Sequence record: OZ035768.1
Direction: 5' to 3' (one strand)
DNA length: 55,927 nucleotides
From: Sashavirus 536P12
The notes under the pieces are model-generated. The model was given only the letters and a program-made list of their open reading frames with translations, did no database searches and was not told where the DNA came from. Of the stretch, positions 1,000 to 51,493 are shown in pieces; the first letter of the stretch is position 1, and each line of letters starts with the position of its first letter. The position numbers and the translations under genes are program-made.

Positions 1000-1047
1000 A
1001 GGTCATTATAGGTTATTTTACTGTAATCCGTCAAGAATTATTTTAAA
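1000..1047 (-). promoter_or_regulatory. conserved sigma70-type promoter element (P1)
   Basis: plus-strand GTCAAGAATTATTTTAAA at 1030-1047 is the reverse complement of TTTAAAATAATTCTTGAC; -35 TTGACG, ~18-nt spacer, -10 TATAAT (1005-1010, minus strand); AT-rich UP-like segment. Confidence 0.7.
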
Positions 1048-1215
1048 CTGTCCGTCACTGTCTGCAGCGTAACAAATACCGTGACTGTAGATTGTCGCAG
1101 TTCGTGTAATTCGTTGATAGTCTGAGCATTGGTTACGAATACGCAGGTCATACCCGGACTGTATGATCAGCCAGGTTGCAATGATGGCGAGTAACTTTAA
1201 AACGTATCTGAACAT
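1018..1215 (-). CDS. small hydrophobic protein (possible membrane protein)
   Basis: ORF 1018..1224 begins with GTG; internal ATG at 1215 preceded by AGGAG at 9-nt spacing; hydrophobic N-terminus FRYVLKLLAIIATWLII; 3' end overlaps promoter P1. Confidence 0.3.
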   Translation of the reverse strand: MFRYVLKLLAIIATWLIIQSGYDLRIRNQCSDYQRITRTATIYSHGICYAADSDGQFKIILDGLQ

Positions 1216-1276
1216 GTTCCACACTCCTGTTTGATAATTTCAGGGTAGTGTGGAACTGGTGAAGATGGTATAGGAT

Positions 1277-1717
1277 TTACGATAATTTAACAGTTAATCC
1301 GGCATTGGTCAGAACGTTAGCAACATCACGCACACCAGCTTCATATCCGTCTATAGGTGTTGCGGGTGATTTAATACAAATGCCAGCATGCTTTGGTAAT
1401 TCAATTACCAACTGTTCCCGACTGACTTTCCACCCTTCCCACATTGCGCTCATGGTGATAAACCAGACACTACCTAAACTGGCTTTCTTGTTCTCCCAAA
1501 ACCAGTCGATGAACTCTATCGACATTCCATGCTGTTTTGCAATTTCATAACGGTCATCCACTTTTTCAACCCTCCACCCATATTTAGCACGATTCATAGC
1601 AGTCCGTTCATCATTTGTGGTGAACAGTACGCGCCCGGATTTATGACAAATGTTCCACATTATTTTGAAAACCATCCTCCTCAAGCTCACCAAGATACGC
1701 ACATTGCCAATCTGCAT
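1277..1717 (-). CDS. hypothetical protein
   Basis: 146-aa ORF in reverse-strand cassette between TerS and TerL; no recognisable motif. Confidence 0.4.
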   Translation of the reverse strand: MQIGNVRILVSLRRMVFKIMWNICHKSGRVLFTTNDERTAMNRAKYGWRVEKVDDRYEIAKQHGMSIEFIDWFWENKKASLGSVWFITMSAMWEGWKVSREQLVIELPKHAGICIKSPATPIDGYEAGVRDVANVLTNAGLTVKLS

Positions 1718-2001
1718 CGCAAAGTACAGGACGGTCAGTTGTTACCAATAGATTTAAACATTCAAATACGGTCATACTTCTGTAATCAAACATAACCTAA
1801 TAACCCCTTTTAATCTTTTCCAGTGCGCGTTGCACGATCTGTCAGGATGACAACATGAATAATTGTGCGTATTGCCCCAGTGCTAAATTTCGTGGTTTAT
1901 CCTGATAAGCGTAAATCGTTGCAACGTCATCACCATTTAAACGGATCCGCCACGGTGTCAGAGTTGGTTTATCACCCATGTTCGATGCTCTCCAGTAATT
2001 T

Positions 2002-2586
2002 TTACTCAGTGAAAAGTTTCACCAACAGTTTGTTAATGTCAGCATCATAAGCATCATAAGCAGCACGAGCAGCATAAGCATCAGCAGCACGAGCAGCACG
2101 AGCAGCACGAGCAGCACGAGCAGCACGAGCAGCATCATAAGCAGCACGAGCAGCATAAGCAGCAGCATAAGCAGCAGCACGAGCAGCACGAGCAGCATAA
2201 GCAGCATAAGCAGCAGCATAAGCAGCACGAGCAGCACGAGCAGCATCAGCAGCATCAGCAGCATCATAAGCAGCACGAGCAGCATAAGCAGCATAAGCAG
2301 CATTCTGTGATGGATTGTTAAGAAAATCCTGAATCAGATTAAAGTCATTCGTATAAGGTCGAATCAATTCGATATTCAACAAAGCACAATCGCAAGCGAA
2401 CCGAACGATTTTTTCTTTCGATAAGATTTTCCCGGCTAACCATAACAAGTCTGAAACGGTGTTTTCACCACCGATTAGACTAATAACTTCAACAGGTTCG
2501 TCAGTGTTGTTAGTCTGAATGATGAAACGTTTAAAACCTTCCTGACATGCGCCAAAATTTTTCAGTTCTTGTTTAGTGATTTTCAT
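2002..2586 (-). CDS. protein with N-terminal globular domain and C-terminal Ala-Ala-(Arg/Tyr/Asp) tripeptide repeat array
   Basis: 194-aa ORF; residues ~95-185 are AAY/AAR/AAD repeats encoded by a near-perfect 9-bp tandem DNA array; GAGGG SD upstream of ATG at 2586; driven by promoter P2. Confidence 0.6.
   Translation of the reverse strand: MKITKQELKNFGACQEGFKRFIIQTNNTDEPVEVISLIGGENTVSDLLWLAGKILSKEKIVRFACDCALLNIELIRPYTNDFNLIQDFLNNPSQNAAYAAYAARAAYDAADAADAARAARAAYAAAYAAYAARAARAAAYAAAYAARAAYDAARAARAARAARAARAADAYAARAAYDAYDADINKLLVKLFTE
2035..2303. repeat. tandem 9-bp (3-codon) repeat array (agcacgagc / agcataagc / agcatcagc), ~30 units
   Basis: directly visible periodicity in sequence 2035-2303; lies inside the 2002..2586 CDS. 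Confidence 0.9.
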
Positions 2587-2809
2587 ACCTGTAACCCTCT
2601 TGTTTTTTGTTTAGTGACAAGATATCTCTTCAACCCGTCGCAACTAATTTCACAATCCCCGCAGGAACCACCATCCAACCAGATGATGCATAGTGTGTGA
2701 TTTCGTGGGGTGAGTTACGCTTTATACTCACCGTAGCGCCTGACAATCAGCGGTATCTTCAGCCGGACAATTCCGGGTTACTACATACTTGGTCAGGTAT
2801 CTTGTCTAT

Positions 2810-2858
2810 GGCAATAACTATACAGATACATGAGTAATCTGTCAAGAATTATTTTAAA
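2810..2858 (-). promoter_or_regulatory. conserved promoter element (P2)
   Basis: GTCAAGAATTATTTTAAA at 2841-2858; minus-strand -35 TTGACA, 17-nt spacer, -10 TATAGT; ~220-nt leader before the ATG at 2586. Confidence 0.7.
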
Positions 2859-2921
2859 TCTCTGTTACCACCAATCACCCGTGGTAAACTGTACAGAACA
2901 GTTACAAACGGACCGACAATC

Positions 2922-4690: not shown

Positions 4691-4724
4691 GTGGCGGGAT
4701 TATTCCCGCCCGTTTTCTTTTTTT
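4691..4724 (+). terminator. rho-independent terminator
   Basis: GGCGGGATTATTCCCGCC hairpin followed by a T-run immediately after the TerL stop. Confidence 0.7.
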
Positions 4725-4725
4725 A

Positions 4726-4760
4726 ATTCTTGACAAATTACATTATAAATGTTTGTAAAT
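4726..4760 (+). promoter_or_regulatory. promoter (partial copy of conserved element, + orientation)
   Basis: AATTCTTGACA with TTGACA at 4730-4735; -10 unclear (TGTAAAT near 4754-4760 or TATACT at 4787-4792); upstream of the strong AGGAG RBS of the gene at 4849. Confidence 0.4.
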
Positions 4761-6883: not shown

Positions 6884-6909
6884 GCCCCAGACAGTTCCGG
6901 GGCTTTTTT
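6884..6909. terminator. rho-independent terminator between convergent operons
   Basis: GCCCCAGACAGTTCCGGGGC hairpin followed by TTTTTT on the + strand. Confidence 0.6.
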
Positions 6910-7184
6910 CAACGTCTGAAAGATGAAAGAACAGCGAGGCTAACAGAACCTAAACCGAATATGACGGCGTATGTTAGCTGATGTTGAAGTTTCACAAAAC
7001 CGTAATAATCGCTTTGTAATTCCACGATGTCAAAAGCAATTGAAAAACTGGTTACCAGCAACATGATTGAAAGAACACGAATCAGAGCAACTGCTAATCC
7101 TATCACCCCTTGTTCTTTTTTCTCAGTTGTAATAACGACAACAATTATTAACAGAAGTGAAAAAGCAATGTACATGTATTCCAT
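6909..7184 (-). CDS. small membrane protein (2 predicted TM helices)
   Basis: 91 aa; hydrophobic segments IAFSLLLIIVVVI and VLSIMLLVTSFSIAF. Confidence 0.5.
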   Translation of the reverse strand: MEYMYIAFSLLLIIVVVITTEKKEQGVIGLAVALIRVLSIMLLVTSFSIAFDIVELQSDYYGFVKLQHQLTYAVIFGLGSVSLAVLSSFRR

Positions 7185-7344
7185 AATGATTAGTCCCGAT
7201 AAACTTCAGCACACCCATAAACTTTACCAGGGTTGTAAGCCTGTTCAGCTTGTAAAGCACCCTGACACTGTTCGAACGTCATGATACGTTCTGTCACAGG
7301 TTCAATAGTCACACCATGCAGAACAAGCACCAGTACATAACCAA

Positions 7345-7674
7345 TTAACATTTTCTTAGAGTCTCCCGCCAGTTCAGCCCGTGTAGGTTTACTTTACATA
7401 TATGAATAAACGGAATATCAGGATCATACCACGAGCTACCGCTAATGTATGGGTCGTGTTCCCACGCGTAAACTTCACCATCAGCATCAGTAGTAATAAC
7501 TGTATAGTTTTCTGGTATAGTTACTGACAATCCAAAATACATTACAGTTTTATAAAGATTCATTTCAACCAGTGTCATTTTACAATCCGGCGCTTCTTCG
7601 TGGATATCCCACGATTTACCACAGTGTGAACACTGATATTCATCGTTACAACGAATAGCGTTTACATGATTCAT
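7345..7674 (-). CDS. hypothetical protein with CxxC motif
   Basis: 109-aa ORF; CNDEYQCSHCG...C near N-terminus. Confidence 0.5.
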   Translation of the reverse strand: MNHVNAIRCNDEYQCSHCGKSWDIHEEAPDCKMTLVEMNLYKTVMYFGLSVTIPENYTVITTDADGEVYAWEHDPYISGSSWYDPDIPFIHICKVNLHGLNWRETLRKC

Positions 7675-7676
7675 GA

Positions 7677-7964
7677 TTATTCTCCGATTGCTTTTTTGAT
7701 TGCTTCACGAGCACCTTCAATACGTGCTAAACCATCAAAACCTGTACTTGGTAAGTATGACATAAACTCTTCACATAACTGCAAGGCTTCTAACAGTTCC
7801 GGCGCTGCAGCGATTAATCGTGCGTTTGCTAATTGTTCTGTTTTGTCACCGTTATAAGTTGGTGTATATGCAATCTCAACACCTGAGTCTGAAACAATAT
7901 CGGGAGTATTATCATCATTGATAATAACTTTCCACGAACCTTTTGTACCTTTAAATTGGTTCAT
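7677..7964 (-). CDS. hypothetical protein
   Basis: ORF 7677..7997; likely start at internal ATG 7964 preceded by GGGGTG SD. Confidence 0.45.
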   Translation of the reverse strand: MNQFKGTKGSWKVIINDDNTPDIVSDSGVEIAYTPTYNGDKTEQLANARLIAAAPELLEALQLCEEFMSYLPSTGFDGLARIEGAREAIKKAIGE

Positions 7965-7969
7965 AATTA

Positions 7970-8392
7970 TCACCCCGCGTCCTGAATATCTTCCCATTCT
8001 TCGTCAGATATATTTTGCCCAAAAACACCGCCGTAAAAGTAATCTTCACCAGGCCAAACAATACTGCCACCATAATAACCATTAGAACTGTTACGATAAT
8101 CAATGACTAAATCACCTTTATCGGTGGTTATTTTTGCACCATAGAATTGAAGATAATCATATTCTTCATTTGCTAACGGTTCTTTATTCATATCTAAATC
8201 ATCGCAAGCAATGACGGTAAACGGAAAACCTAATGCTGGAAGTTCTACTGATTCAATCCATGTGTGTGAATAACAGTCAGCATCAACACGAACGATCAGT
8301 TGTTGACCATCATCAGTGACAAAAAGAAGTGCTTTTTTATCCGAAGCGATTTGCATTTTAACTATTTTCTTATTCAATAATAAGTTATTCAT
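7970..8392 (-). CDS. hypothetical protein
   Basis: 140-aa ORF in minus-strand operon. Confidence 0.5.
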   Translation of the reverse strand: MNNLLLNKKIVKMQIASDKKALLFVTDDGQQLIVRVDADCYSHTWIESVELPALGFPFTVIACDDLDMNKEPLANEEYDYLQFYGAKITTDKGDLVIDYRNSSNGYYGGSIVWPGEDYFYGGVFGQNISDEEWEDIQDAG

Positions 8393-8395
8393 AAT

Positions 8396-8545
8396 TCAAA
8401 ACCCCTTACTTTTAGCAATTTGTTGTGCGCGTTTTTTAGTGTGACCAGCGGTAACCAAGCGTTTAACTTCTGCTTTACGGCGTTCGAAGTGATCGGAGCG
8501 TGAATTTTCAACCCACGGGCGACTAATATTCTCGTTCGGATTCAT
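8396..8545 (-). CDS. small basic protein (49 aa), unannotated in the ORF track
   Basis: ATG at 8545 with AAAGGA SD; stop overlaps the start region of the 7970..8392 gene. Confidence 0.3.
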   Translation of the reverse strand: MNPNENISRPWVENSRSDHFERRKAEVKRLVTAGHTKKRAQQIAKSKGF

Positions 8546-8557
8546 TTTAGTGTCCTT

Positions 8558-8854
8558 TCATTTGTAATAAAGTTCTTTTTCAAGCCTGATGATTTCTTCT
8601 TTCAACCACGAAAGTTCTAAAAGAGTTTGTTTACCCCACGCCGTCACTTCGGCATACCGTTTACACTCATAACTGTGTTTTTTACGCTCGTAACAGGTAA
8701 GATGTCGTTGACAACGCGTGCTATTTGAAAGGTGAAACCTTATGTTTACACTAACGCGGTTTTCAATTAAATCATCATTTATACAATCGTTTACGTTGCG
8801 CCAGTCTTGTCGCATTTTAGCTAGTACAACAAGTTTTTCAGCCCGTGTGGTCAT
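8558..8854 (-). CDS. hypothetical Cys-rich protein
   Basis: 98-aa ORF; several Cys/His. Confidence 0.5.
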   Translation of the reverse strand: MTTRAEKLVVLAKMRQDWRNVNDCINDDLIENRVSVNIRFHLSNSTRCQRHLTCYERKKHSYECKRYAEVTAWGKQTLLELSWLKEEIIRLEKELYYK

Positions 8855-9163
8855 TTAACTGTCTCCGGTACAAACCACATTGACGCGAGATACGCACACC
8901 CGGCAATTTTATGTTCGTGTTTAGGTTCGAAACTACCCAGAATCACGCTGATGTGTGCGTGGGCCTGTTTAAAATCCACACCTTTAACAGCAACCGCGTA
9001 TTCTTTCAGACCATTGAAAAACCATTTGCTGATCCACTGATTCCACGGGTTAGAATTTTCGAAAAAATTCTTTCGGAATACTACCCATCGTCGGGAGGAA
9101 TTCAGCAATGTTTTTAGGTCCAAAAGCAATATCCAGTTGTGTAATATTTTCATTCGGTTTCAT
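8851..9163 (-). CDS. hypothetical protein interrupted by a frameshift at a T6/A6 homopolymer
   Basis: ATG at 9163 with AAGGGTGA SD opens a 37-codon frame (MKPNENITQLDIAFGPKNIAEF...) that stops just after the A6 run at 9062-9067; the protein-like continuation lies in the +1 frame (ORF 8851..9153); removing one nucleotide from the run fuses them into ~103 aa. Confidence 0.35.
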
Positions 9164-9189: not shown

Positions 9190-9235
9190 ACTAAAGCATA
9201 ATCGCATGTTTGCAATCTGTCAAGAATTATTTTAA
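9190..9235 (-). promoter_or_regulatory. conserved promoter element (P4)
   Basis: GTCAAGAATTATTTTAA at 9219-9235; minus-strand -35 TTGACA, 17-nt spacer, -10 TATGCT. Confidence 0.65.
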
Positions 9236-9305
9236 CACCGTGCAAAAAAACCATCACTGATATAACATACGTTAAGAACCGTAAACCGTATGGAGCCTGT
9301 AGAAC

Positions 9306-10664: not shown

Positions 10665-10697
10665 AAAAAGGGACCAGAAACGGTCCCTTAATTTTTA
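10665..10697. terminator. bidirectional rho-independent terminator
   Basis: AGGGACCAGAAACGGTCCCT hairpin flanked by an A-run and a T-run between convergent genes. Confidence 0.7.
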
Positions 10698-11027
10698 CTT
10701 AGTTTCAGGCTGCACGATTGACAGTAATTTACTCGCTTCATCAACAGCAGTCTGAATACGAGTCTGTAACGGGTAACTGTTGTTGATCGCGCGTTCCAGC
10801 GTTTTATCAAGCAGTTGCAGTTTGACTTCATCATCGCCAGTGAACGCGTACATGTCAGCGACAACTTCCTTAAACTGTGATGCTTTCTCAACGATAGTTG
10901 TGGTTACAATGTAGTTCCAGACTTTGTTAAGTAGTTTAAATTTCACTTCGTTGTCAGCAACTGCATCAACCAGAATTTCAGCAGCAGTCTTATCATATTT
11001 AACAAGCTCAAGAATTTCAAAACGCAT
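10695..11027 (-). CDS. hypothetical protein
   Basis: 110-aa ORF. Confidence 0.5.
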   Translation of the reverse strand: MRFEILELVKYDKTAAEILVDAVADNEVKFKLLNKVWNYIVTTTIVEKASQFKEVVADMYAFTGDDEVKLQLLDKTLERAINNSYPLQTRIQTAVDEASKLLSIVQPETK

Positions 11028-11042
11028 TTAAGTTTTCTCCTG

Positions 11043-11387
11043 TCAGTTAACGTACTTCGCGATCAGTTTATCACAGTCCTCGCGACAGGTAGCATACTTA
11101 AACAGGTCACTGGCTGCTTCTGCCCGGTAGTCAGTATCAATGGTGTAATGTTCATTAACATAGTTATAGGCTGCAAGGTAATTGCTGAACATCCCCGTGG
11201 TTACCACTTTCGGTTGTTCCCTTACGACCTTACCGTTAAACAGATATACTATTAGCAAAATCAGACCACCGATCACAGGACTTGTGAGAAATGCGATAAA
11301 GAACCATACACCAGGGTTACGACCTGTTTGTTTGGCAACACCCGCGACAACCAGAGAGAAAAGAATCCATAAAATAGCGAATAACAT
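11043..11387 (-). CDS. membrane protein (2 TM helices at N-terminus)
   Basis: 114 aa; MLFAILWILFSLVVAGVA and VWFFIAFLTSPVIGGLILLIVYLF. Confidence 0.5.
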   Translation of the reverse strand: MLFAILWILFSLVVAGVAKQTGRNPGVWFFIAFLTSPVIGGLILLIVYLFNGKVVREQPKVVTTGMFSNYLAAYNYVNEHYTIDTDYRAEAASDLFKYATCREDCDKLIAKYVN

Positions 11388-11411: not shown

Positions 11412-11459
11412 GTTTGTAGGTTACACGTCCTTGTGTAATCCATCAAGAATTATTTTAAA
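11412..11459 (-). promoter_or_regulatory. conserved promoter element (P5, -35 variant TTGATG)
   Basis: ATCAAGAATTATTTTAAA at 11442-11459. Confidence 0.6.
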
Positions 11460-11698: not shown

Positions 11699-12024
11699 AA
11701 ATACGACCCCACAATTGCTGCACAGTTGACGATCGCTAAACGCGTTGCTTTTTCACGGTCTTCTCCGTGGCTAACTGGTTGCTTATAACTAACGCCAGTG
11801 TCAGGGTTATTAACCGTCACTTCGTTGTCACGAACATCCAGATCCATGTACATGTTAACCATCAGACTGAAAGCATCCTCATTACGTGTAAGAGGATTCC
11901 ACAGGCGACCATTACCTATATCAATACCTTCGTTTATGTAACGTTCGTCGTACGCGACGTAATATTTACCCTGGATTTCAGCAGCCCGTGCTGCGTTGAC
12001 TAATAAATCACGATTGTTCATCAT
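11695..12024 (-). CDS. hypothetical protein
   Basis: 109-aa ORF overlapping neighbours by 4 nt. Confidence 0.5.
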   Translation of the reverse strand: MMNNRDLLVNAARAAEIQGKYYVAYDERYINEGIDIGNGRLWNPLTRNEDAFSLMVNMYMDLDVRDNEVTVNNPDTGVSYKQPVSHGEDREKATRLAIVNCAAIVGSYL

Positions 12025-12524
12025 ACCCGTCCTGTTGATCCAAACCCGCCATTACGCTGACTATCAACATCTGGTAATTCTTCCACTTCAACCAGGTTAA
12101 CAGGTTCGACACGTTCAACCATAAGCTGGCAAACGCGTTCACCGTCTGCGATGGTCTGTAATTTCTGCCCGTGGTTAGTCAGCGTAACGTAGTATTCTTC
12201 TTTGTAATCACGATCACCGATACCCACACAGTTGATTAGTGACAAACCGTGTTTAAGACTCATGCCGGAACGTGGATAGAATTTAATGCAATATCCGCTA
12301 TCAACTGACATTTTCAGACCAGTGGGGATCATAGCGCGGTCGCTGGGCCATAATGCGATTGTTCCTGCAACAACCGGACGTTCCACTTTAGCACCCGATT
12401 CCGTGAATACCGTTACCGATTCTTCCCACAGGCAAGCACGAACGTCTAACCCGGCGCTGTCTGGTGTTGCACGTGTCGGAAGTTCGGCGCGGGGTGTTAG
12501 TTTTTTGATATACAGGTTAGTCAT
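12021..12524 (-). CDS. dut: dUTPase (trimeric dUTP diphosphatase / dCTP deaminase superfamily)
   Basis: motifs AGLDV (I), PRSGMSLKHGL (III), GIGDRDYKEEY (IV), RNGGFGSTG (V). Confidence 0.8.
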   Translation of the reverse strand: MTNLYIKKLTPRAELPTRATPDSAGLDVRACLWEESVTVFTESGAKVERPVVAGTIALWPSDRAMIPTGLKMSVDSGYCIKFYPRSGMSLKHGLSLINCVGIGDRDYKEEYYVTLTNHGQKLQTIADGERVCQLMVERVEPVNLVEVEELPDVDSQRNGGFGSTGRV

Positions 12525-12554: not shown

Positions 12555-12602
12555 ACAAATGTTAGTGTTACTGCTTGCAATGTGTCAAGAATTATTTTAA
12601 AC
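12555..12602 (-). promoter_or_regulatory. conserved promoter element (P6)
   Basis: GTCAAGAATTATTTTAAAC at 12584-12602; minus-strand -35 TTGACA. Confidence 0.6.
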
Positions 12603-15017: not shown

Positions 15018-15244
15018 AGTGGTTACTCCTGTTCTGGTTTAAACACGCGACTGTTTTAAGTGCCATTGAGCAATGCAGAAGAACGTTGAACCGGGGGGGC
15101 ACTAAAACCGTTAAACAAACCGCCATTTTTTACGCTTATCAATGGTCATTCCTGTTTCTCCCCGCAGAACGGACAATAAGACATTTTGATGTTGATTTCC
15201 AGGCGTGTGAAGTTTGTCACCAACTTTTTTCATACAATCACACA

Positions 15245-15406: not shown

Positions 15407-15409
15407 AGG

Positions 15410-39455: not shown

Positions 39456-39494
39456 TGTTATCGCCTCAATAAGTTTTAAATAATTCTATACGGT

Positions 39495-41351
39495 TTACCG
39501 AAGTGGTGCAACGAGTTTTTCAGCTTCTTTGATGTAAAAATCATAATTGAGCGTTGCCCGGTTAAAACGTTTCATGTCGTTACATTCCGTGGTCAACCAA
39601 CCTTTGCACACGGACATACGGCGCTCAGGCGCGTCAGGGTTCAGTTTCAGTGATTTTGCCAGCGGTGGCATGACTTTTGTCAAAGGTGCACCATCTGTAC
39701 TGACGTAATAACGGGTAATGTTCTGAACCTGTTTATCACCCCATAGTAATTTGCTGTTACGCGGTACTTTCGTCACTAACATGAAATCGTGAATATCTTC
39801 GTGTGATGTTATAAAATCACGAATGTCTTTATTGTGTACCAGTGCTGCTTCAGCCGCTTTTGCGACAACCTGCATGCTGTGGTTTTGATGCCAACCAAGG
39901 TCAACACTGTGACAATAAGCACCTTTACGTTTAACTTTCTTACCACCTTCGTAAACAGCGATGTAGTTGTTTACGTCGCGAATAAACATCACGTCATAAA
40001 TCGCTTCTTCAAGCTGGAGTCTGGTTAATTTTTCCCACGCGTGACGAACCTGTTCTACTTGTCCGGTAAACACTCGTGGTACGTAAACCGTAAGACCATC
40101 TGTGTTAGCCTGGATCATGGACAAACCAGGGATTTTCAGAAGTTCTTCAGCCAACATGCACAAAAGTAATTGTCCGTTAATCGTAATAGCCATTGTATAA
40201 GCAGGATCGTAGAACGGGCTGTATACGTTATTACTGTCACCATACACACCGTTTAACGCCAGTTTTAACATTGCATTTTCTGGTGTACCTTTCGGGTAAC
40301 TGGAACGCATGTCATAAACATTTTTATAAATGGTGCAAAATTGTTTACCCAGATGTGCCGGATAAAGTTCATTACTGATCGCAAGGTTCGGGTAAAAACT
40401 GGCAACGTCCAGATCGATGATCACATAATTTTCAGTGGACCTGATAGTTTGAGACTCAATAGACCCGTGGATACCACCCGTACCAAAATCAAACGAGAAC
40501 CCGTTAATGTCTGCGCTTAAATCTGTAAATACACCTTTTGTTTCAGTGATGACCTGCTGACGTAACCAGTTAAGAACACGATTAAATTCAGGCTGTTCAA
40601 AACGGACATAAGGGAAAATCACGCTGTTTAATGCAATTGATAGTCTGTGCGTCTGTCGTGGTTTTCTACTACCCGGTTCGAAACATTGAATACCTGATTT
40701 TTCAAGTTCCATGATGAAATAGTCTTTACCGATTTTCGTGTCGTTATGGTTCATGAAATTACGACCGTATTTAGCAGAAAGTTCACGACGAAAATCTATC
40801 AGCTTTTTACTATGTTTATAAAACATCAAAGTCGCTTTCAAATCGTGTATCAGATATTGACGAAGCGTATCAATTTGAGAATCGGTTAAATAAGTCCCTG
40901 GGATAAACGGAAGGTCTTCAATGTTTTCCATTCTCATATTGAATTCAAGTGTTTTCAGACTTGTTCGTTTTGCCTGATTGTCGAAATGATGAATTTTATA
41001 CAAATCAAGCTGGGGAACTATCCAGTCTTTTTCCCACACCATATGAGCAAAACGATTTTCATCACCAGCGTTAATTATTGAATCACCTTTTTTATAAATG
41101 TCTGCGTTGGTGATATACATGATGTTGTTCAAAATAGAATGCTGAACAGGATAGTCGTAACCCAGATTGTTATAACCAATTTCTTCAGCACGATGTTCAC
41201 GCAAATATTCTGTGAACAGGTAAAAAGCCTGACGATCATCGCGACGATGTGAAATCTCAAAAATATAAGGCGTTTCAGTTAACGCGTGAATAGCACCGAA
41301 CAGAAAAACATTAGGATAGTTTTCAATATCGTGAACGTAAGCATCTGACAT
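39495..41351 (-). CDS. DNA polymerase (compact family-B-like with 3'-5' exonuclease motifs)
   Basis: 618 aa; Exo I-like HDIEN; motif A-like DLDVASFYPNL (DxxSLYPS); motif B-like KLALNGVYG (Kx3NSxYG); motif C-like ANTDGL (DTDS variant). Confidence 0.65.
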   Translation of the reverse strand: MSDAYVHDIENYPNVFLFGAIHALTETPYIFEISHRRDDRQAFYLFTEYLREHRAEEIGYNNLGYDYPVQHSILNNIMYITNADIYKKGDSIINAGDENRFAHMVWEKDWIVPQLDLYKIHHFDNQAKRTSLKTLEFNMRMENIEDLPFIPGTYLTDSQIDTLRQYLIHDLKATLMFYKHSKKLIDFRRELSAKYGRNFMNHNDTKIGKDYFIMELEKSGIQCFEPGSRKPRQTHRLSIALNSVIFPYVRFEQPEFNRVLNWLRQQVITETKGVFTDLSADINGFSFDFGTGGIHGSIESQTIRSTENYVIIDLDVASFYPNLAISNELYPAHLGKQFCTIYKNVYDMRSSYPKGTPENAMLKLALNGVYGDSNNVYSPFYDPAYTMAITINGQLLLCMLAEELLKIPGLSMIQANTDGLTVYVPRVFTGQVEQVRHAWEKLTRLQLEEAIYDVMFIRDVNNYIAVYEGGKKVKRKGAYCHSVDLGWHQNHSMQVVAKAAEAALVHNKDIRDFITSHEDIHDFMLVTKVPRNSKLLWGDKQVQNITRYYVSTDGAPLTKVMPPLAKSLKLNPDAPERRMSVCKGWLTTECNDMKRFNRATLNYDFYIKEAEKLVAPLR

Positions 41352-41431
41352 AATAAAACCCTGATAAGTAAATGGGGCACTATGGCCCCATGTCTGTTTA
41401 AAGCGGTATGTCGTCCCAGTTCCAGTAACTA

Positions 41432-42235
41432 TCAGTAACCGTTACCGTTGAGAAAATTCGGGGCCGGGGTGGTCATTACCATATAACCGTTAGCGATCAA
41501 TTGTTCATCGTTCCAACCTTGCGCAATAAACTGTTCGTAAGTAGCACCACCTGCTTTTTCAGTCATTACCTTCACAGGTGCTGCCGCTGGTGTAGGCGCT
41601 GCTACAGGTGCTGCCGCTGGTGTAGGCGCTGGTGTTACGCCGATCGGACGTGCACCTTCAGGCATTGCAGGAGCAGCACCGAACACAGAGGCAGGAGCCG
41701 GACCAGAAATAATTTCTTCACCTGCATAAAGCAATTGCGCCATTTCCATGTTGATATATACACCAGCCTGATTACCTGTACGACCGTTTGCAACAGATGA
41801 CCCGCTGATACGGTAGTAATAACCTTTTTTCGCCAGATTTTTATCAATAACTGGCTGGTACGCTGCGTTATAAACAGGACACGCGTCAATAGCCACGTTG
41901 CGTGAGAAACCAATTACCCAGTGACCAGCATAACCAGTTTTACTCGCATGTTTCGGATCGTCACCGTTAATAATTTTCCATGCGAAAGTGGGTTGTTGTG
42001 GTTCGCCGTTCACATAGTGTGAGTTAGCCGCTCGCATGATGGCCTGGAACACCGCACCAAGTTCACCTTGTTCTTCCCACCAGTTCGCAGCTGTTTTAGG
42101 AAATGCCAGACCAACCCACCAGTTATGTTTTTCAGGTGCTAACGGTTTATTTTCGTGGTCATGAGTGTTGATATCGAAAAAAGAACCGCCAACCAGACGA
42201 CCAACCGGAGTTACAAAAGATTCTTTCTGTGCCAT
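41432..42235 (-). CDS. ssDNA-binding protein candidate (gp2.5 / DUF2815-like)
   Basis: 267 aa; N-terminal FVTPVGRLVGGSFFD...KHNWWVGLAFPK pattern, Pro/Ala-rich linker, aromatic C-terminus; sits in the replication module. Confidence 0.35.
   Translation of the reverse strand: MAQKESFVTPVGRLVGGSFFDINTHDHENKPLAPEKHNWWVGLAFPKTAANWWEEQGELGAVFQAIMRAANSHYVNGEPQQPTFAWKIINGDDPKHASKTGYAGHWVIGFSRNVAIDACPVYNAAYQPVIDKNLAKKGYYYRISGSSVANGRTGNQAGVYINMEMAQLLYAGEEIISGPAPASVFGAAPAMPEGARPIGVTPAPTPAAAPVAAPTPAAAPVKVMTEKAGGATYEQFIAQGWNDEQLIANGYMVMTTPAPNFLNGNGY
41575..41636. repeat. 30-bp tandem repeat x2 inside CDS (encodes PAPTPAAAPV linker)
   Basis: CAGGTGCTGCCGCTGGTGTAGGCGCTG(C/G)T repeated directly. Confidence 0.8.
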
Positions 42236-42250
42236 GTTATTAACCTTCTT

Positions 42251-43396
42251 TTAAAGTGGACGTGCGCCAGTCGGCATCGTCACGGGTTTATTAAAAACAG
42301 ATTCTGCCAGTGTGCTGTGACCTTTACGCGGGTCACTGTCAGGTACTAAAACTGGCTGACCTTCTGGTTTTGTCGTACACATGTCAACAAGTGCCGGAGG
42401 CAGTGATTTTTCCAGTGTTGACAACGGTTTTAATTTACGTTCGTACAATGTTTCAGGGTTTACACCAAACATGGGTGCAGCACCGATCAGTTTTCCTTCG
42501 TCCGTAAGCTGACGTCGGGTTTGCTTTGTTGCAAGTTTAAAACCCGGTAAAGCCTTACCCATGCGAACAAAATGTAACCCCTGAGTATGTAACGCTGTTT
42601 TTGCTTCAGAAGAACGTGTATACAGTTCTTCAAGAAGTGCCAGACGACGCGCTACTTCTTCTGGCGTAAGTGATGGTGGTGCATCAAGAACAGTAGCCAA
42701 TTCTAAAACCCTCTCATACATTGCCGGACACATACCACGCGCCGGACAGTAATGACAATGACTACCAACATTTAACGGTGCGTCTGGTTTATGTGCTTCG
42801 TTAAACCCGTGTTTAAATCGTTCAGCCCATTCCATCAATGTTGCCCGGTTAAACTCCCATCGTCTTACAGGTCCGAGTGGGTGATAAGCCCGTGGCTGAA
42901 CAATTGTGAACACAACGCGCTTAACAGTGTCGATGCAACGTTGGTCCAGTGCATAATAGACCCCCTGTGAGTTATCAACTGCGTCAACTGCAACATGACC
43001 GTATTTATAATCCCATACGTAAAGCGTATCAGTATTAAAGTCATACCAGCGATAATCACAGGTTCCGTACTGACCGGGTAACAACCAGTCAATGTGAATG
43101 CGAACTTCTGAAAACAGCGGATCAAGTTTCGCACCAACTGAAAGAACATCTGCTATAAAGTCACCCGCGTAAATATGCATGTCTTCAGTAACCTGAACAC
43201 CGTTAGGAGCAAGACACGGCATTAATGGCGGTTTACCTTTAATCTTCTGTTCTAACACCCAGTGTCCGGCTGTACCTTCTTCAGCACTGGGTGATGATGG
43301 TTCTACATAATCAATCCGCTGTGACAGTTGAACGCTACCCGGACAAGCTAACCAACGTTTTGATCCACTGGCACTAAAGGTAGCGTGACTGGTCAT
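42251..43396 (-). CDS. PD-(D/E)xK nuclease with Cys cluster (Cas4 / DUF2800-like exonuclease)
   Basis: 381 aa; N-terminal SASGSKRWLACPGS, DYKYG (D/ExK), and CHYCPARGMC cysteine cluster. Confidence 0.55.
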   Translation of the reverse strand: MTSHATFSASGSKRWLACPGSVQLSQRIDYVEPSSPSAEEGTAGHWVLEQKIKGKPPLMPCLAPNGVQVTEDMHIYAGDFIADVLSVGAKLDPLFSEVRIHIDWLLPGQYGTCDYRWYDFNTDTLYVWDYKYGHVAVDAVDNSQGVYYALDQRCIDTVKRVVFTIVQPRAYHPLGPVRRWEFNRATLMEWAERFKHGFNEAHKPDAPLNVGSHCHYCPARGMCPAMYERVLELATVLDAPPSLTPEEVARRLALLEELYTRSSEAKTALHTQGLHFVRMGKALPGFKLATKQTRRQLTDEGKLIGAAPMFGVNPETLYERKLKPLSTLEKSLPPALVDMCTTKPEGQPVLVPDSDPRKGHSTLAESVFNKPVTMPTGARPL

Positions 43397-44166
43397 CAGA
43401 ATGCCCCACCCATTTGTTTAACAGACTCAGCCTGACCGACAATATTTTCAGCATCAGCAGGGGCAGCGTTAATACGTTCAATCAGTTCGATGATAGATTT
43501 CAGTTTTACTGGGTCGTCAATCTGCATCACGTTCTGAGTTTCATACAGTCCCATGATTCGCTGACTTAATGGCGCAGCACGGTCACCCGTAATTTGTCCA
43601 AACATCTGCATCAGTGCTGACTGAAGAACCTGTGTGTTATAAACTTTAGCCGGATCCGTGGTTACATGTTGCTCGATTGGTGCAGCCGGTGCTGCTGGTA
43701 CAACTGGAGCTACCGGAGCTACCGGAGCGGCAGGAACCGCTGGAGCAGGATCAACAGGTGCTACATAACCCGGTGCAAGTTCTGCAGGTCCGGTATAACG
43801 CCCTGCTTCAACTGCTTCAGCGATAAGTTCACGTTTAACACCGTCAACAAACGCTTCATCCAGTTTTTTCTTTTGACGCCACAGACCATCACCTTTGTTC
43901 AGGGATTTACTGTCAGTGTGGATACGCGGATCATGACGCAAACCCCATTTGTCGAACTCTTCAGTGCTGGTTTCATTATCGTCAACATCTTCAGTTGGTG
44001 CAGATACAACAGGCAATGATTCAGCAACGACAGTCACAGTTTCTTTAGTGATACCATCACCCTGAGCAGTCATGAGTGGTGCAGCACCAGTCGCAATAGC
44101 ATTTGCCAGATTGTTGATCGCAGTTTCCAGACCCGGAGCAGTTACAAGTAATTTAACTTCGAACAT
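43396..44166 (-). CDS. hypothetical protein with Pro/Ala-rich linker
   Basis: 256 aa; first gene of the minus-strand replication operon; PAPAVPAAPVAPVAPVVPAAPAAP linker. Confidence 0.5.
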   Translation of the reverse strand: MFEVKLLVTAPGLETAINNLANAIATGAAPLMTAQGDGITKETVTVVAESLPVVSAPTEDVDDNETSTEEFDKWGLRHDPRIHTDSKSLNKGDGLWRQKKKLDEAFVDGVKRELIAEAVEAGRYTGPAELAPGYVAPVDPAPAVPAAPVAPVAPVVPAAPAAPIEQHVTTDPAKVYNTQVLQSALMQMFGQITGDRAAPLSQRIMGLYETQNVMQIDDPVKLKSIIELIERINAAPADAENIVGQAESVKQMGGAF

Positions 44167-44192: not shown

Positions 44193-44240
44193 TCGCTAAC
44201 TTTAAAAGGTGTTGTGTAATCTGTCAAGAATTATTTTACA
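44193..44240 (-). promoter_or_regulatory. conserved promoter element (P11)
   Basis: GTCAAGAATTATTTTACA at 44223-44240; minus-strand -35 TTGACA, -10 TAAAGT. Confidence 0.6.
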
Positions 44241-44255: not shown

Positions 44256-44303
44256 TGCAGATGTTAGAGGAATGAGTTGCAATACGTCAAGAACTATTTT
44301 AAA
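44256..44303 (-). promoter_or_regulatory. conserved promoter element (P12, tandem with P11)
   Basis: GTCAAGAACTATTTTAAA at 44286-44303; minus-strand -35 TTGACG. Confidence 0.55.
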
Positions 44304-49663: not shown

Positions 49664-49681
49664 TCATTGCACAAGGATGTG

Positions 49682-49723
49682 TAAAATAATTCTTGACGAA
49701 TTACAGAGGTGTGCGCTATAGTC
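49682..49723 (+). promoter_or_regulatory. conserved promoter element (P13, + orientation)
   Basis: TAAAATAATTCTTGACGAATTACA; -35 TTGACG 49693-49698, 18-nt spacer, -10 TATAGT 49717-49722. Confidence 0.7.
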
Positions 49724-49966: not shown

Positions 49967-49968
49967 TA

Positions 49969-50208
49969 ATGGGTGGTCGTGGATCATGTCGTCGAACTCG
50001 TTCATTACGCTGCAGTAAGTGTTATGAGCGAAACCTACGTGATTATTTATTAGGGTTTGGTACACGCAACTGGGAAAACGTTGAAGTTACTGGTGAAAAT
50101 GGAAACACTTACACCTGCCGTTGTGAATCCTGTGGTCACACTTATCAAACAACATCAGCGGCTGCACGTCGCGAATGGAAGTGGAAGAAAAACCATGTTA
50201 ATAACTAG
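49969..50208 (+). CDS. small Cys-rich zinc-finger-like protein
   Basis: 79 aa; CSKCYER...CRCESCGH. Confidence 0.45.
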   Translation: MGGRGSCRRTRSLRCSKCYERNLRDYLLGFGTRNWENVEVTGENGNTYTCRCESCGHTYQTTSAAARREWKWKKNHVNN

Positions 50209-50452
50209 TATTTTCATACTTGTATTTTGGATAATCATCGTTATACGTATAATTATTTGTGCTGTCATACAAAGAAAAATGATTGATTTTTATTATTCTG
50301 ATAAAAGTGGTTGGGACACACATCAACAGAGTATGTTTGATGCTTACCCACAATTAGATACTTTCAAAATGATTTTTAAATTCTGGGTATGGCCTATGTC
50401 AAAATTCTATCCTGAATACAGGAAAGGTAAAAACCATGAAAAACATATTTGA
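50195..50452 (+). CDS. small membrane protein
   Basis: ORF 50057; likely start ATG 50195; hydrophobic LITSIFILVFWIIIVIRIIICAVI. Confidence 0.35.
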   Translation: MLITSIFILVFWIIIVIRIIICAVIQRKMIDFYYSDKSGWDTHQQSMFDAYPQLDTFKMIFKFWVWPMSKFYPEYRKGKNHEKHI

Positions 50453-50633
50453 CCGTTTAATTACTGTTATCGTATTTCTTGTATCCGTAACGCTCGCGTC
50501 TTGTATTGTCGGACTAATGACCCGTGGTAATCATGCGGAAACACCGTGGTGGTTTCTGGCAGGTATTGGATTATTAGCGGCTGCGGCATCAATTGATGCT
50601 TGCATGTGGGGAGTGAAAAACGATCATGACTGA
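50436..50633 (+). CDS. small membrane protein (2 TM)
   Basis: 65 aa; LITVIVFLVSVTLASCIVGLM and WWFLAGIGLLAAAASI. Confidence 0.45.
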   Translation: MKNIFDRLITVIVFLVSVTLASCIVGLMTRGNHAETPWWFLAGIGLLAAAASIDACMWGVKNDHD

Positions 50634-50841
50634 ATTCGGTGCTGTAATCAAAAAAGAAGACCGTTATGCACATATTGATACCCGGATTACCTGGGTTGAT
50701 ATCAGTGAAGCTACTCTGTTCAGTTCAACTTACATGGCTGGTGTTGCACTTAAATCACTTCGCGATCAGGGTTTCAATTGCAGAAAAGTAACAATTGCTC
50801 CTGTTAAAATCACGCGGATCGTAGAGGAAACAGAAGGATGA
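50626..50841 (+). CDS. hypothetical protein
   Basis: 71-aa ORF. Confidence 0.4.
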   Translation: MTEFGAVIKKEDRYAHIDTRITWVDISEATLFSSTYMAGVALKSLRDQGFNCRKVTIAPVKITRIVEETEG

Positions 50842-50865
50842 ATATTGCTGGTAGGAGTATTGATT

Positions 50866-51063
50866 ATGCAAGTAGGTAATTGTTATTTATATCCTAAAAC
50901 AGATCTGTTTGAAAAATGTTGGGTGGTAATAACCTATTCAAATCCGTGTCAGGGAGTTATCATGTGGGATGATGGTAAATGTCAGACTTCAATGATAAAT
51001 GATCAGGACATGCGAGGCTGTCAATTAGTTGGATGTAATATGAAGATGAGATCAACACAATGA
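50866..51063 (+). CDS. hypothetical Cys-containing protein
   Basis: ORF 50845 begins with TTG; likely start ATG 50866 after AGGAG. Confidence 0.35.
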   Translation: MQVGNCYLYPKTDLFEKCWVVITYSNPCQGVIMWDDGKCQTSMINDQDMRGCQLVGCNMKMRSTQ

Positions 51064-51455
51064 TAATCGTCGTCACAGGTGGTCGTGACTTCAACGACAG
51101 AGTAGCAGTATTTTCCGCGTTAGGACTACTTCACAAACAATTCCCCATTACCGAACTAATTGAAGGTGGTGCGTCAGGTGTTGATAACCTGTGTAAGCAA
51201 TGGGCGCAGTTACACAGTATTCCTGTGCGTAGTTGCCCGGCAGCGTGGGACGATCTGACTGTACCTGGTGCGGTTGTAAAACAGGGCAAGCACGGGCCTT
51301 ATAACGCTGTTGCAGGTCATCAACGTAATCAGGCGATGTTAGAGGGTGAGCCACGCCCTACATATGGTGTTGTGTTCCCCGGTGGGCGTGGTACTGCTGA
51401 TATGCATCGTCGCATGTTGAAAGCTGGTTTAACTGTGTGGGTTCCATATCCTTAA
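51060..51455 (+). CDS. DUF2493 / SLOG-family protein (predicted nucleotide-binding)
   Basis: 131 aa; MIIVVTGGRDF...GGASGVDNL...GHQRNQAM...VVFPGGRGT pattern; stop overlaps promoter P14. Confidence 0.5.
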   Translation: MIIVVTGGRDFNDRVAVFSALGLLHKQFPITELIEGGASGVDNLCKQWAQLHSIPVRSCPAAWDDLTVPGAVVKQGKHGPYNAVAGHQRNQAMLEGEPRPTYGVVFPGGRGTADMHRRMLKAGLTVWVPYP

Positions 51456-51493
51456 AATAATTCTTGACAGATTACCAACCCTCCCCGATAATT
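51452..51493 (+). promoter_or_regulatory. conserved promoter element (P14, + orientation)
   Basis: TTAAAATAATTCTTGACAGATTACCA; -35 TTGACA 51464-51469, 17-nt spacer, -10 GATAAT 51487-51492. Confidence 0.7.

What the first reader, a model, noticed from the sequence alone, without database searches (positions are those of the whole stretch)
1000..51493. A conserved ~30-bp promoter element (TTTAAAATAATTCTTGAC[A/G]GATTACA) is present 13 times and heads reverse-strand cassettes
Full copies sit at 1030, 2841, 9219, 11442, 12584, 16260, 16575, 24508, 26453, 44223, 44286, 49693 and 51464, with degenerate copies at 4730 and ~20523. Each has an AT-rich UP-like segment, a TTGAC(A/G) -35, a conserved GATTACA immediately downstream, a 17-18-nt spacer and a variable TAnnnT -10. 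Conservation well beyond the -35 hexamer suggests an added recognition layer, for example a phage factor binding GATTACA. The element marks the heads of minus-strand cassettes inserted between plus-strand morphogenesis genes (TerS/TerL, portal/MuF, major tail/chaperone, chaperone/tape measure), an unusual mosaic.
Basis: partly seen in the sequence, partly recalled or inferred. Interest (0 to 1): 0.55.

Follow-up and report, generated by a model that had tools for sequence, protein, structure and literature searches.

The report
Repeated promoter block in 9NA-like phage
A 26-base sequence repeated 13 times in this 9NA-like E. coli phage is almost certainly its standard host-type promoter; half of it is a widely used promoter module and the other half (ATTRCA) is a short box specific to this phage lineage whose reader is unknown.

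Summary
TTTAAAATAATTCTTGAC-R-N-ATTRCA occurs 13 times (0 expected by chance), scoring 38-45 bits, against 9.3 for the best of 20 shuffles. Copy 4717(+) is a genuine but degenerate member. The "~20523" copy is only a weak look-alike (17/26 positions).

The window is a 9NA-like siphovirus, about 96% identical to Escherichia phage AVIO78A. Every copy points at a downstream gene. A TAnnnT -10 lies 17-18 nt after TTGAC in 12 of 13 copies. In 11 of 14 copies a 22-28-nt leader, a Shine-Dalgarno sequence and an ATG follow.

Ten copies are on the minus strand: eight head small-gene cassettes between morphogenesis genes and two head the replication operon. Three are on the plus strand.

The block is a lineage signature, with 6-13 copies in each of 28 Salmonella, Escherichia and Klebsiella 9NA-like records. 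Proteus phage Isfahan carries a variant.

In 97 unrelated viral contigs that share only the AT-rich+TTGAC 16-mer, a -10 lies at exactly 17 nt in 58%, but none has the box. So the upstream half is a generic promoter module and ATTRCA is a lineage-specific layer.

No phage protein that could read the box was found. The gene mosaic was already published. This is a new member of a known kind (phage-specific early-type sigma-70 promoters), of moderate interest.

The parts
1005..1047 (-). Promoter copy: block 1022-1047, TTGACG, 18-nt spacer, -10 TATAAT at 1005-1010. Drives the 62-aa gene 970..782. Lies in the last codons of the upstream ORF 1018-1215.
2817..2858 (-). Promoter copy: block 2833-2858, TTGACA, 17 nt, TATAGT. 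A 224-nt leader precedes the repeat-containing gene 2586..2002. Divergent from TerL (ATG 2922).
4717..4742 (+). Degenerate copy: the AT-rich half is overwritten by the T-run of the TerL terminator (4693-4710) and the -10 is unclear. Heads plus-strand genes 4849-6875. The 9NA orthologue scores 36 bits.
9195..9236 (-). Promoter copy: TTGACA, 17 nt, TATGCT. Heads the minus-strand cassette 9163..6909. Divergent from portal (ATG 9306).
11418..11459 (-). Promoter copy with TTGATG as -35, 17 nt, TAACCT. Internal promoter driving 11387..10695. Overlaps the 3' end of ORF 11450-11698.
12559..12601 (-). Promoter copy: TTGACA, 18 nt, TAACAT. Drives dUTPase 12524..12021 and the following genes.
16236..16277 (-). 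Promoter copy: TTGACG, 17 nt, TATCTT. Heads the cassette 16207..14787, which includes an RDF-like gene.
16562..16603 (+). Plus-strand promoter copy: TTGACG, 17 nt, TACCCT. Drives the 122-aa gene 16634-17002, which runs into the head genes. Present in AVIO78A but absent at this site in 9NA and Carvaje.
24485..24526 (-). Promoter copy: TTGACG, 17 nt, TATCTT. One-gene cassette 24452..24216 between the major tail protein and the chaperone.
26429..26470 (-). Promoter copy: TTGACG, 17 nt, TAAACT. Drives an Imm-like superinfection-immunity gene 26398..26219 and a 273-aa gene. This cassette is absent between the chaperone and the tape measure in AVIO78A, 9NA and Carvaje.
44199..44240 (-). Promoter copy: TTGACA, 17 nt, TAAAGT. 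Proximal promoter of the leftward replication operon 44166..37508.
44261..44303 (-). Tandem upstream promoter copy: TTGACG, 18 nt, TAACAT, 63 bp upstream of the previous copy.
49680..49722 (+). Plus-strand promoter copy: TTGACG, 18 nt, TATAGT. Lies after the primase gene and drives small genes 49754-51455.
51451..51492 (+). Plus-strand promoter copy: TTGACA, 17 nt, GATAAT, box ATTACC. A conserved hairpin sits in the leader. Drives the remnant of a ParB-like gene and the right-arm small genes, up to the terminator at 54565-54585.
758..775 (.). Terminator-like hairpin at the convergent junction between terS and the first minus-strand cassette.
10668..10689 (.). Bidirectional terminator between portal and the minus-strand cassette driven from 12576 and 11434.
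24162..24179 (.). Terminator at the junction between the major tail protein and the cassette driven from 24501.
25298..25319 (.). Bidirectional terminator closing the cassette driven from 26445 and the chaperone gene.
54565..54585 (.). Bidirectional terminator closing the right-arm plus-strand unit.

Best explanation
The element is the upstream two-thirds of this phage's standard sigma-70-type promoter. Host RNA polymerase would bind the A/T-rich tract through its alpha subunit C-terminal domains (about -48 to -37, the proximal UP-element position). Sigma region 4 would bind TCTTGAC. A variable TAnnnT -10 lies 17-18 nt further on. Transcripts would start about 7 nt later and reach a Shine-Dalgarno sequence and an ATG after about 25 nt. 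The 13-14 promoters split the genome into many short, separately terminated units. These are eight minus-strand accessory-gene cassettes wedged between plus-strand morphogenesis genes (moron-like), the leftward replication operon, and three or four plus-strand units. The AT-rich+TTGAC half is a generic polymerase-recruiting module. The ATTRCA box at about -28 to -23 is a lineage-specific addition under purifying selection. Its most likely role (inferred, about 30-35%) is as a recognition site for an unidentified 9NA-lineage factor that times or tunes these promoters. Otherwise it tunes promoter strength directly. What is shown: sequence anatomy, gene coupling, conservation and distribution. 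What is inferred: polymerase binding, start sites, early timing and the role of the box.
For: There are 13 copies against 0 expected, and PWM scores are bimodal. The conserved block has sharp edges within unconserved flanks. The generic sigma-70 scan ranks these sites highest. The -10 is TAnnnT at 17/18 nt in 12 of 13 copies; the leader is 22-28 nt with SD and ATG in 11 of 14; all 14 copies are co-oriented with the next gene. At 8 orthologous sites aligned over 4-5 genomes, 65-92% of block columns are invariant against 16-55% in the flanks. The block is restricted to 9NA-like phages, with 6-13 copies per genome, and is absent from the E. coli core genome (8 of 5,426 genomes, one copy each). 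In 97 unrelated contigs that share only the 16-mer, 58% have TAnnnT at exactly 17 nt, against about 5% at other offsets, and none has the box. The box is present in 43 of 44 family copies and is kept in Isfahan, where the AT-rich half has changed. A perfect block heads HicB/HicA-like or membrane-protein cargo in prophages. Cassettes end at strong, often bidirectional, terminators. The AVIO78A record annotates five orthologous sites as generic sigma-70 promoters.
Against: No transcript 5' ends, reporter data or in vitro transcription exist for any copy. Several -10 hexamers are weak (TACCCT, TAACCT). Copy 4717 has no clear -10. Copy 16562 feeds into head genes, so these units are not all 'early'. 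For the box, no DNA-binding or RNAP-binding protein was found that is co-distributed with it. The prophage copies suggest the promoter works with host polymerase alone.
Confidence: 0.85

Rival explanations
1. The block is a promoter, but the ATTRCA box has no function of its own. All copies descend from one ancestral promoter, and recombination or gene conversion between copies keeps them alike (concerted evolution, as proposed for T4-type PeSL cassettes).
For: Homology breakpoints between this phage and AVIO78A, 9NA or Carvaje are about 4-fold enriched within 40 nt of a block (4 against about 1 expected; P 0.015-0.03). In Isfahan all copies share the same changed AT-rich half, a concerted pattern. 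Cassette content behind conserved promoters varies between relatives.
Against: Positions 27-36, next to the box, are fully randomised among copies, while 21-23 and 25 are invariant. Conversion tracts would not stop at a 6-bp edge. The box has stayed the same across phages of Escherichia, Salmonella, Klebsiella and Proteus, whereas the AT-rich half drifted in Isfahan. Positions 19, 20 and 24 inside the block vary freely between 96%-identical phages, so homogenisation is not strong.
Confidence: 0.2
2. The block's main role is as a recombination site that mobilises promoter-gene cassettes, in the manner of PeSLs. Promoter activity would be secondary.
For: There is modest breakpoint enrichment at blocks. 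Abrupt loss of homology falls exactly at block edges at the TerL-upstream and ParB-like sites between window and AVIO78A. The cassette behind 26445 sits at a site that is empty in relatives, and its 273-aa gene has a 38%-identical relative elsewhere in 9NA. The same block lies at a mosaic boundary in prophages.
Against: Only 4 of 36-45 breakpoints lie at blocks. Strict co-orientation with genes, the fixed -10 spacing and the fixed leader length are promoter constraints, not recombination constraints. No conserved stem-loop accompanies the block, unlike PeSLs.
Confidence: 0.1
3. The repeats are not promoters. They would be binding sites for a genome-organising, replication or packaging protein, such as the ParB-like protein of relatives or TerS.
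For: Relatives encode a ParB-like protein just downstream of one copy. The copies are dispersed along the genome.
Against: The ParB-like gene is internally deleted in this window, yet all blocks are intact. The block is not palindromic. Orientation, -10 spacing and leader geometry are unexplained by this model. The same 16-mer carries a correctly spaced -10 in 97 unrelated contigs.
Confidence: 0.03

Closest known systems
Phage-specific early sigma-70 promoter families (T4 early promoters, T5 early promoters, T7 A1-A3)
   Same: There are many near-identical strong host-type promoters per genome. Conservation extends beyond the two hexamers, including A/T-rich upstream tracts. They are read by unmodified host polymerase and head early or accessory genes (own knowledge of these systems).
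   Different: Here the -10 is the least conserved part. A 6-bp box in the upstream half of the spacer is as conserved as the -35. The promoters are scattered through the morphogenesis region on the opposite strand. Timing has not been measured.
PeSL mobile regulatory cassettes of T4-type phages (Arbiol et al. 2010, PMC2839356; PMC4122927)
   Same: A conserved strong sigma-70-like promoter is repeated among small variable genes. Some homology breakpoints between related phages fall at the repeats.
   Different: PeSLs are composite promoter plus stem-loop terminator units. Here no stem-loop adjoins the block, and the terminators lie at the far ends of the cassettes. The breakpoint association is modest.
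Morons of lambdoid/HK97-like phages (Hendrix and colleagues; own knowledge)
   Same: These are autonomous promoter-gene(s)-terminator units inserted between late genes. The cassette behind 26445 sits between two genes that are adjacent in relatives. The same block heads a moron-like HicB/HicA cassette in prophages.
   Different: The phage is virulent, so the units cannot serve lysogenic conversion. All units share one promoter sequence, whereas morons usually have unrelated promoters.
Factor-dependent phage promoters with a box near -30 (T4 middle promoters/MotA box; lambda Q-binding element in the PR' spacer; own knowledge)
   Same: A short phage-specific DNA element next to or inside the -35/spacer region marks a promoter class.
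   Different: The MotA box replaces the -35, whereas here a consensus -35 is kept. No AsiA, MotA or Q homologue was detected.

Membership tests
Sigma-70 (-10/-35 class) promoter with UP element | -35 hexamer close to TTGACA | tested here: met
   TTGAC is present in 12 of 13 copies and TTGAT in one. Position 19 is A or G.
Sigma-70 (-10/-35 class) promoter with UP element | -10 hexamer (TAnnnT) 16-18 bp downstream of the -35 | tested here: met
   12 of 13 copies have TAnnnT at 17 or 18 nt; copy 51451 has GATAAT. Degenerate copy 4717 has no clear -10.
Sigma-70 (-10/-35 class) promoter with UP element | A/T-rich UP element upstream of the -35, bound by alpha-CTD | tested here: inconclusive
   An invariant TAAAATAATT lies at about -46 to -37, the proximal-subsite position. 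No distal subsite is conserved. Binding cannot be tested here.
Sigma-70 (-10/-35 class) promoter with UP element | Located upstream of, and co-oriented with, a gene | tested here: met
   14 of 14 copies are co-oriented. The leader is 22-28 nt in 11 of 14.
Sigma-70 (-10/-35 class) promoter with UP element | Transcription initiates there with sigma-70 holoenzyme | not testable with these tools
   No RNA data are available. Indirect support: the same 16-mer has a -10 at exactly 17 nt in 58% of 97 unrelated contigs.
PeSL (promoter-early stem-loop) cassettes | Conserved promoter physically joined to a conserved stem-loop terminator | tested here: not met
   The flanks of the block are at background conservation. 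Terminators lie hundreds to thousands of nt away, at the cassette ends.
PeSL (promoter-early stem-loop) cassettes | Indels and replacements between relatives are bounded by the motif | tested here: inconclusive
   4 of 36-45 breakpoints lie within 40 nt of a block, against about 1 expected (P 0.015-0.03). Most breakpoints lie elsewhere.
Morons | Own promoter and own terminator flanking one or a few genes | tested here: met
   Examples: P24501 to the terminator at 24162-79, P26445 to 25298-319, and P12576/P11434 to 10668-89. These are predictions only.
Morons | Inserted between genes that are adjacent in related phages | tested here: met
   The cassette between the chaperone and the tape measure is absent in AVIO78A, 9NA and Carvaje. 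Other cassettes occupy conserved sites but with variable content.
T4 middle promoter / sigma appropriation | Factor box replaces the -35; phage encodes AsiA- and MotA-like proteins | tested here: not met
   A consensus -35 is present. No such families were found in Pfam or PHROG scans of the proteome.

The most novel reading that the evidence does not exclude
The ATTRCA box at -28 to -23 is the docking site of an unidentified protein specific to the 9NA lineage, either a DNA-binding regulator or an RNA polymerase-associated factor. This protein would switch the whole promoter family off or on during infection. That would be a new phage transcription-timing system built on an otherwise generic host promoter. 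A paired class of extended -10 promoters (TGnTAnnnT, 31-32 nt before the ATG of TerL, MuF, the tape measure and the gene at 46039) might escape it.
Probability: 0.3. Interest if true: 0.65.

Novelty: new member of a known kind. Interest (0 to 1): 0.4.

Why it matters
[quoted passage not shown] 2014), which includes the BASEL model phage KarinMuster (Bas82). It explains how dozens of small opposite-strand genes between morphogenesis genes can be expressed independently. It separates a generic polymerase-recruiting half of the promoter from a 6-bp lineage-specific box. That makes the question of whether a phage factor reads the box directly testable by mutating six bases. The 26-bp block is also a compact, portable, probably strong promoter module, and a simple sequence marker for recognising 9NA-like phages in metagenomes.

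Tried and rejected
(1) Prior description of the motif: the key paper (Zeng et al. 2019, PMC6819911) is not held. Other papers and a search for the sequence string gave nothing relevant. I therefore cannot exclude that the promoters are described there.

(2) TGTACAGAAC as a late-promoter word: not enriched with 1 mismatch (8 against 5.6 expected). The shorter TACAGAAC is enriched (10 against about 2), so I kept it only as a side note.

(3) Extended -10 motifs in general: not enriched in intergenic DNA (17 against 14.4 expected). Only the four copies with a fixed 31-32-nt distance to an ATG stand out.

(4) The 224-nt leader behind copy 2833: not unusually structured (z = -0.2). No Rfam family matches anywhere in the window.

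(5) Trans-factor hunt, all negative:
- Phyletic profiling.
- Pfam and PHROG scans of about 90 proteins.
- PDB sequence searches of four conserved unknown proteins.
- NinH and the RDF-like protein are not co-distributed with the motif.
- The ParB-like gene is deleted in this window.

(6) Readings of the block as a pseudo-palindrome (TAATTC-N5-GGATTA), a direct repeat, a sigma-54 site, a lambda CII site or a MotA box were considered from the sequence. I dropped them because the matches were poor or at chance level.

(7) The Vibrio relative's repeated word CGCTCCTAT is the reverse complement of a shared ribosome-binding site, not a promoter.

(8) A bare 16-mer scan of IMG/VR was at first uninformative about distribution. 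It later served as the control set.


Full report
**1. Observation**

The pattern TTTAAAATAATTCTTGACRGATTACA, allowing up to 3 mismatches, occurs 13 times; no match appeared in any of 100 dinucleotide-preserving shuffles. The shorter TTGACRGATTACA with up to 1 mismatch occurs 12 times against 0.24 expected.

A matrix built from the 13 copies scores them at 38-45 bits. After a wide gap come 4717(+) at 17 bits, 39474(+) at 19 and 46000(-) at 10. The best score in 20 shuffles was 9.3.

Per-column information shows a block with sharp edges:
- Positions 3-18 (TAAAATAATTCTTGAC) are essentially invariant.
- Position 19 is A or G, and position 20 is mostly G.
- Positions 21-23 (ATT) are invariant, position 24 is A or G, position 25 (C) is invariant, and position 26 is mostly A.
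- Everything outside the block is at background.

So these are not long duplicated segments. Ten copies lie on the minus strand and three on the plus strand (16562, 49680, 51451).

Its AT-rich half is overwritten by the T-run of the TerL terminator at 4693-4710, and its orthologue in 9NA scores 36 bits. The '~20523' copy matches only 17 of 26 positions and scores 2.9 bits. Weak orthologues of about 12 bits exist in 9NA and Carvaje.

**2. What the window is**

The window is a 9NA-like siphovirus.
- It is about 96% identical to Escherichia phages AVIO78A, PJ16, KarinMuster (Bas82) and PDP46.
- It is 84-89% identical to Salmonella phages Sasha, Sergei, Solent and 9NA.
- It is about 79% identical to Klebsiella phages such as Carvaje.
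- It has no tRNA genes.

[quoted passage not shown] It is visible in the deposited annotations.

**3. Anatomy of each copy**

Taking TTGACR as the -35, a TAnnnT hexamer follows at 17 nt (8 copies) or 18 nt (4 copies). Copy 51451 has GATAAT at 17 nt. The generic sigma-70 scan ranks these sites at the top of its lists.

The -10 hexamers vary: TATAAT, TATAGT, TATGCT, TAACCT, TAACAT, TATCTT, TACCCT, TAAACT and TAAAGT. This suggests graded strength.

In 11 of 14 copies the predicted start site is followed by a 22-28-nt A-rich leader, a Shine-Dalgarno sequence and an ATG. The exceptions are:
- copy 2833, with a 224-nt leader that is also present in 9NA;
- copy 4717, with an 83-nt leader;
- copy 44278, which is a tandem promoter 63 bp upstream of 44215.

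All 14 copies are co-oriented with the next gene. By my gene calls only 8.6% of the window is non-coding. The blocks lie in that fraction or over the last codons of an upstream gene (1022, 11434, 51451).

With the -35 at -35 to -30, the invariant TAAAATAATT occupies about -46 to -37. That is the position of the proximal UP-element subsite (own knowledge of the Estrem/Gourse consensus). ATTRCA occupies about -28 to -23.

**4. Transcription units**

Strong, often bidirectional, terminator-like hairpins lie at the convergent ends of the units. They are at 758-775, 4693-4710(+), 10668-10689, 20130-20153(+), 24162-24179, 25298-25319, 33406-33425, 41372-41391 and 54565-54585.

The predicted minus-strand units are:
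- P2833 and P1022, between terS and TerL;
- P9211, before portal;
- P12576 and P11434, after portal;
- P16252, after MuF;
- P24501, between the major tail protein and the chaperone;
- P26445, between the chaperone and the tape measure;
- P44278 and P44215, the replication operon 44166..37508.

The predicted plus-strand units are P4717, P16562, P49680 and P51451.

Identified cargo includes dUTPase, an Imm-like superinfection-immunity protein, an RDF-like protein, Dam, SSB, an HD hydrolase, homing-endonuclease-like domains and many proteins of unknown function.

**5. Comparative evidence**

Distribution:
- The matrix finds 10-11 strong copies in 9NA and in Carvaje, and 13 in AVIO78A.
- A 32-nt query containing the block hits 30 of 50,697 phage records, at 221 places. 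Twenty-eight are 9NA-like records from Salmonella, Escherichia or Klebsiella, with 6-13 copies in each complete genome (fewer in the partial FSL SP-062/SP069 records).
- The E. coli core genome lacks the block: 8 of 5,426 genomes have one copy each.

Conservation at orthologous sites: at eight junctions aligned over 4-5 genomes, 65-92% of block columns are invariant against 16-55% in the flanks.

Proteus phage Isfahan has a capsid protein only about 60% identical and a GC content of 36%. It carries nine copies of a variant, TTTAAAATATAGC-TTGACAGATTRCA. The AT-rich half has changed in concert across its copies, while TTGAC and ATTRCA are kept.

A Vibrio relative (capsid 52% identical) has no box and only a faint echo of the AT-rich half.

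**6. A natural control that separates the two halves**

A scan of IMG/VR for the bare 16-mer TAAAATAATTCTTGAC returned more than 100 contigs, mostly with single matches. After removing box-bearing loci, 97 unrelated contigs (about 70% A+T) remain.
- They have TAnnnT at exactly 17 nt after the hexamer in 58% of cases and at 18 nt in 14%. Other offsets give about 5%.
- They show no conservation at positions 21-26.

The AT-rich+TTGAC half is therefore a recurrent, generic promoter module in many phages. This is independent support for promoter function. It also means the upstream half needs no lineage-specific explanation.

In contrast, when four complete 9NA-like genomes are anchored only on the core, 43 of 44 copies have ATT[AG]C at positions 21-25. 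The adjacent positions 27-36 are random. Selection therefore acts on the box itself, and it is specific to this lineage. The box is ATTRCA, however, not GATTACA: positions 19, 20 and 24 flip between phages that are 96% identical.

**7. The block outside the family**

A perfect block (TTTAAAATAATTCTTGACGGATTGCA) sits 44 nt upstream of a DUF1902 (HicB-like)/HicA cassette beside tail-fibre genes. It is found in an E. coli prophage and in Klebsiella prophage ST512-KPC3phi13.3, and in about ten IMG/VR prophage-type contigs. These have two different upstream flanks and two or three different cargos.

Similarity to the 9NA-like phages ends at the block edges, and the cargo genes are absent from 9NA-like genomes. 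This is essentially one prophage lineage, so it counts as one independent context. It shows that the block is a discrete, portable unit. It also suggests that the promoter works with host polymerase alone, which argues against an obligatory phage activator.

**8. Who reads the box?**

I found no candidate.
- Phyletic profiling listed proteins shared by all box-bearing phages but undetected in the Vibrio relative.
- Pfam, PHROG and PDB sequence searches gave no sigma factor, HTH repressor, antiterminator, or AsiA/MotA-like family.
- NinH (13463-13657) and the RDF-like protein (15410-15766) are missing from Carvaje and Isfahan.
- The ParB-like gene that follows the 51451-type copy in relatives is internally deleted here, yet all blocks are intact.

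The role of the box therefore remains inferred. I put about 30-35% on an unidentified lineage factor, about 20% on a neutral or concerted-evolution origin, and the rest on direct tuning of polymerase binding.

**9. Recombination role**

Homology breakpoints between the window and AVIO78A, 9NA or Carvaje fall within 40 nt of a block four times in each comparison, against about 1 expected (P 0.015-0.03). Some junctions are exact, for example the TerL-upstream and ParB-like sites against AVIO78A. Most breakpoints lie elsewhere, however, and no stem-loop is attached to the block. The resemblance to T4-type PeSL cassettes (PMC2839356) is therefore partial.

**10. Prior knowledge and novelty**

- The AVIO78A record annotates seven generic 'TTGACA(N15-18)TATAAT' promoters, five of which coincide with orthologues of this motif.
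- The stretch of the Sergei record inspected, around one block (24424-29450), annotates ribosome-binding sites and terminators but no promoter.
- The main genomics paper on the group (Zeng et al. 2019) could not be read, so a prior description cannot be excluded.

Conserved phage-specific early-type sigma-70 promoters are a known kind; T4, T5 and T7 have them. This family is a new member of that kind. Its distinctive feature is a conserved spacer box, and its reader is an open, testable question.

**11. Verdict**

- Observation: confirmed.
- Interpretation: partly supported.
- Confidence that these are functional sigma-70-type promoters: about 0.85.
- Interest: 0.4.

Noticed in passing
window 2882-2899, 16289-16296, 16352-16359, 24543-24550 (+): The word TACAGAAC occurs 10 times against about 2 expected. 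All its intergenic copies lie on the plus strand just upstream of late-gene blocks: TerL, two tandem GCTAATACAGAACGTGTA units before the head genes, and the chaperone. The TerL and chaperone sites are conserved in AVIO78A, 9NA and Carvaje. It may be a late-promoter or start-site element.
   Followed up: partly
window 2882-2890, 13792-13800, 26493-26501, 45999-46007 (+): Extended -10-like elements (TGGTAAACT, TGATATAAT, TGTTAAACT, TGGTAATCT) lie exactly 31-32 nt before the ATG of TerL, MuF, the tape measure and the gene at 46039. This is the same leader geometry as the block promoters, but without a good -35. They may be a second promoter class that does not depend on a -35. Portal has TGATATAAC 40 nt before its ATG.
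   Followed up: partly
window 13802-13825 and 51478-51508: A hairpin followed by a T-run sits directly between the TGATATAAT element and the MuF start codon. Nearly the same hairpin, inverted, lies in the leader of promoter copy 51451 (AGCCTCAGTTAACACACATGAGGCT) and is conserved in 9NA and Carvaje.
   Followed up: no
window 51527-51731: The ParB-like gene (about 255 aa in AVIO78A, 9NA and Carvaje) is internally deleted. Only residues 1-57 and 222-255 remain, in different frames.
   Followed up: yes
window 9050-9163 and 8851-9153 (-): The first gene behind promoter 9211 appears frameshifted relative to its 103-aa AVIO78A homologue: the N-terminal 37 aa are in one frame and the rest is in another. 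This is either a sequencing error or a pseudogene.
   Followed up: partly
window 2039-2303 (inside gene 2002-2586, -): A coding tandem array with a 9/18/39-nt period and about 29 copies of a 9-nt unit (AGCAGCAYR...). It gives a highly repetitive 194-aa protein behind promoter 2833. Only half of the protein is conserved in 9NA.
   Followed up: no
window 55439-55563: Several direct repeats containing TGCACGTTGTG lie in the roughly 580-bp non-coding stretch at the end of the window, which is upstream of terS on the circular map. They may be a pac, origin or regulator site.
   Followed up: no
window 39474-39499 (+) and 46000-46025 (-): Two block look-alikes lie antisense to the surrounding genes. 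They keep the AT-rich half and an ATTACC/TTTACC box, but the -35 is spoiled (TATAC, TATGC). The first is identical in 9NA and Carvaje. The second scores 30 bits in those genomes, and its reverse complement forms the TGGTAATCT element before the gene at 46039.
   Followed up: partly
window 20507-20535 and gap 20528-20899: A weak promoter-like site (TTGACA, 17 nt, TATTGT) and a degenerate block open a roughly 370-nt gene-free gap after the capsid-proximal gene. Carvaje carries a tRNA-Ser in the equivalent gap. No tRNA or Rfam match was found here.
   Followed up: partly
L131 3501-4028; L132 3501-3826: E. coli and Klebsiella prophages carry a HicB-like (DUF1902)/HicA cassette beside the tail-fibre genes, driven by a perfect copy of the 9NA-type block. 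Sister contigs have the same promoter with a membrane-protein cargo instead.
   Followed up: yes
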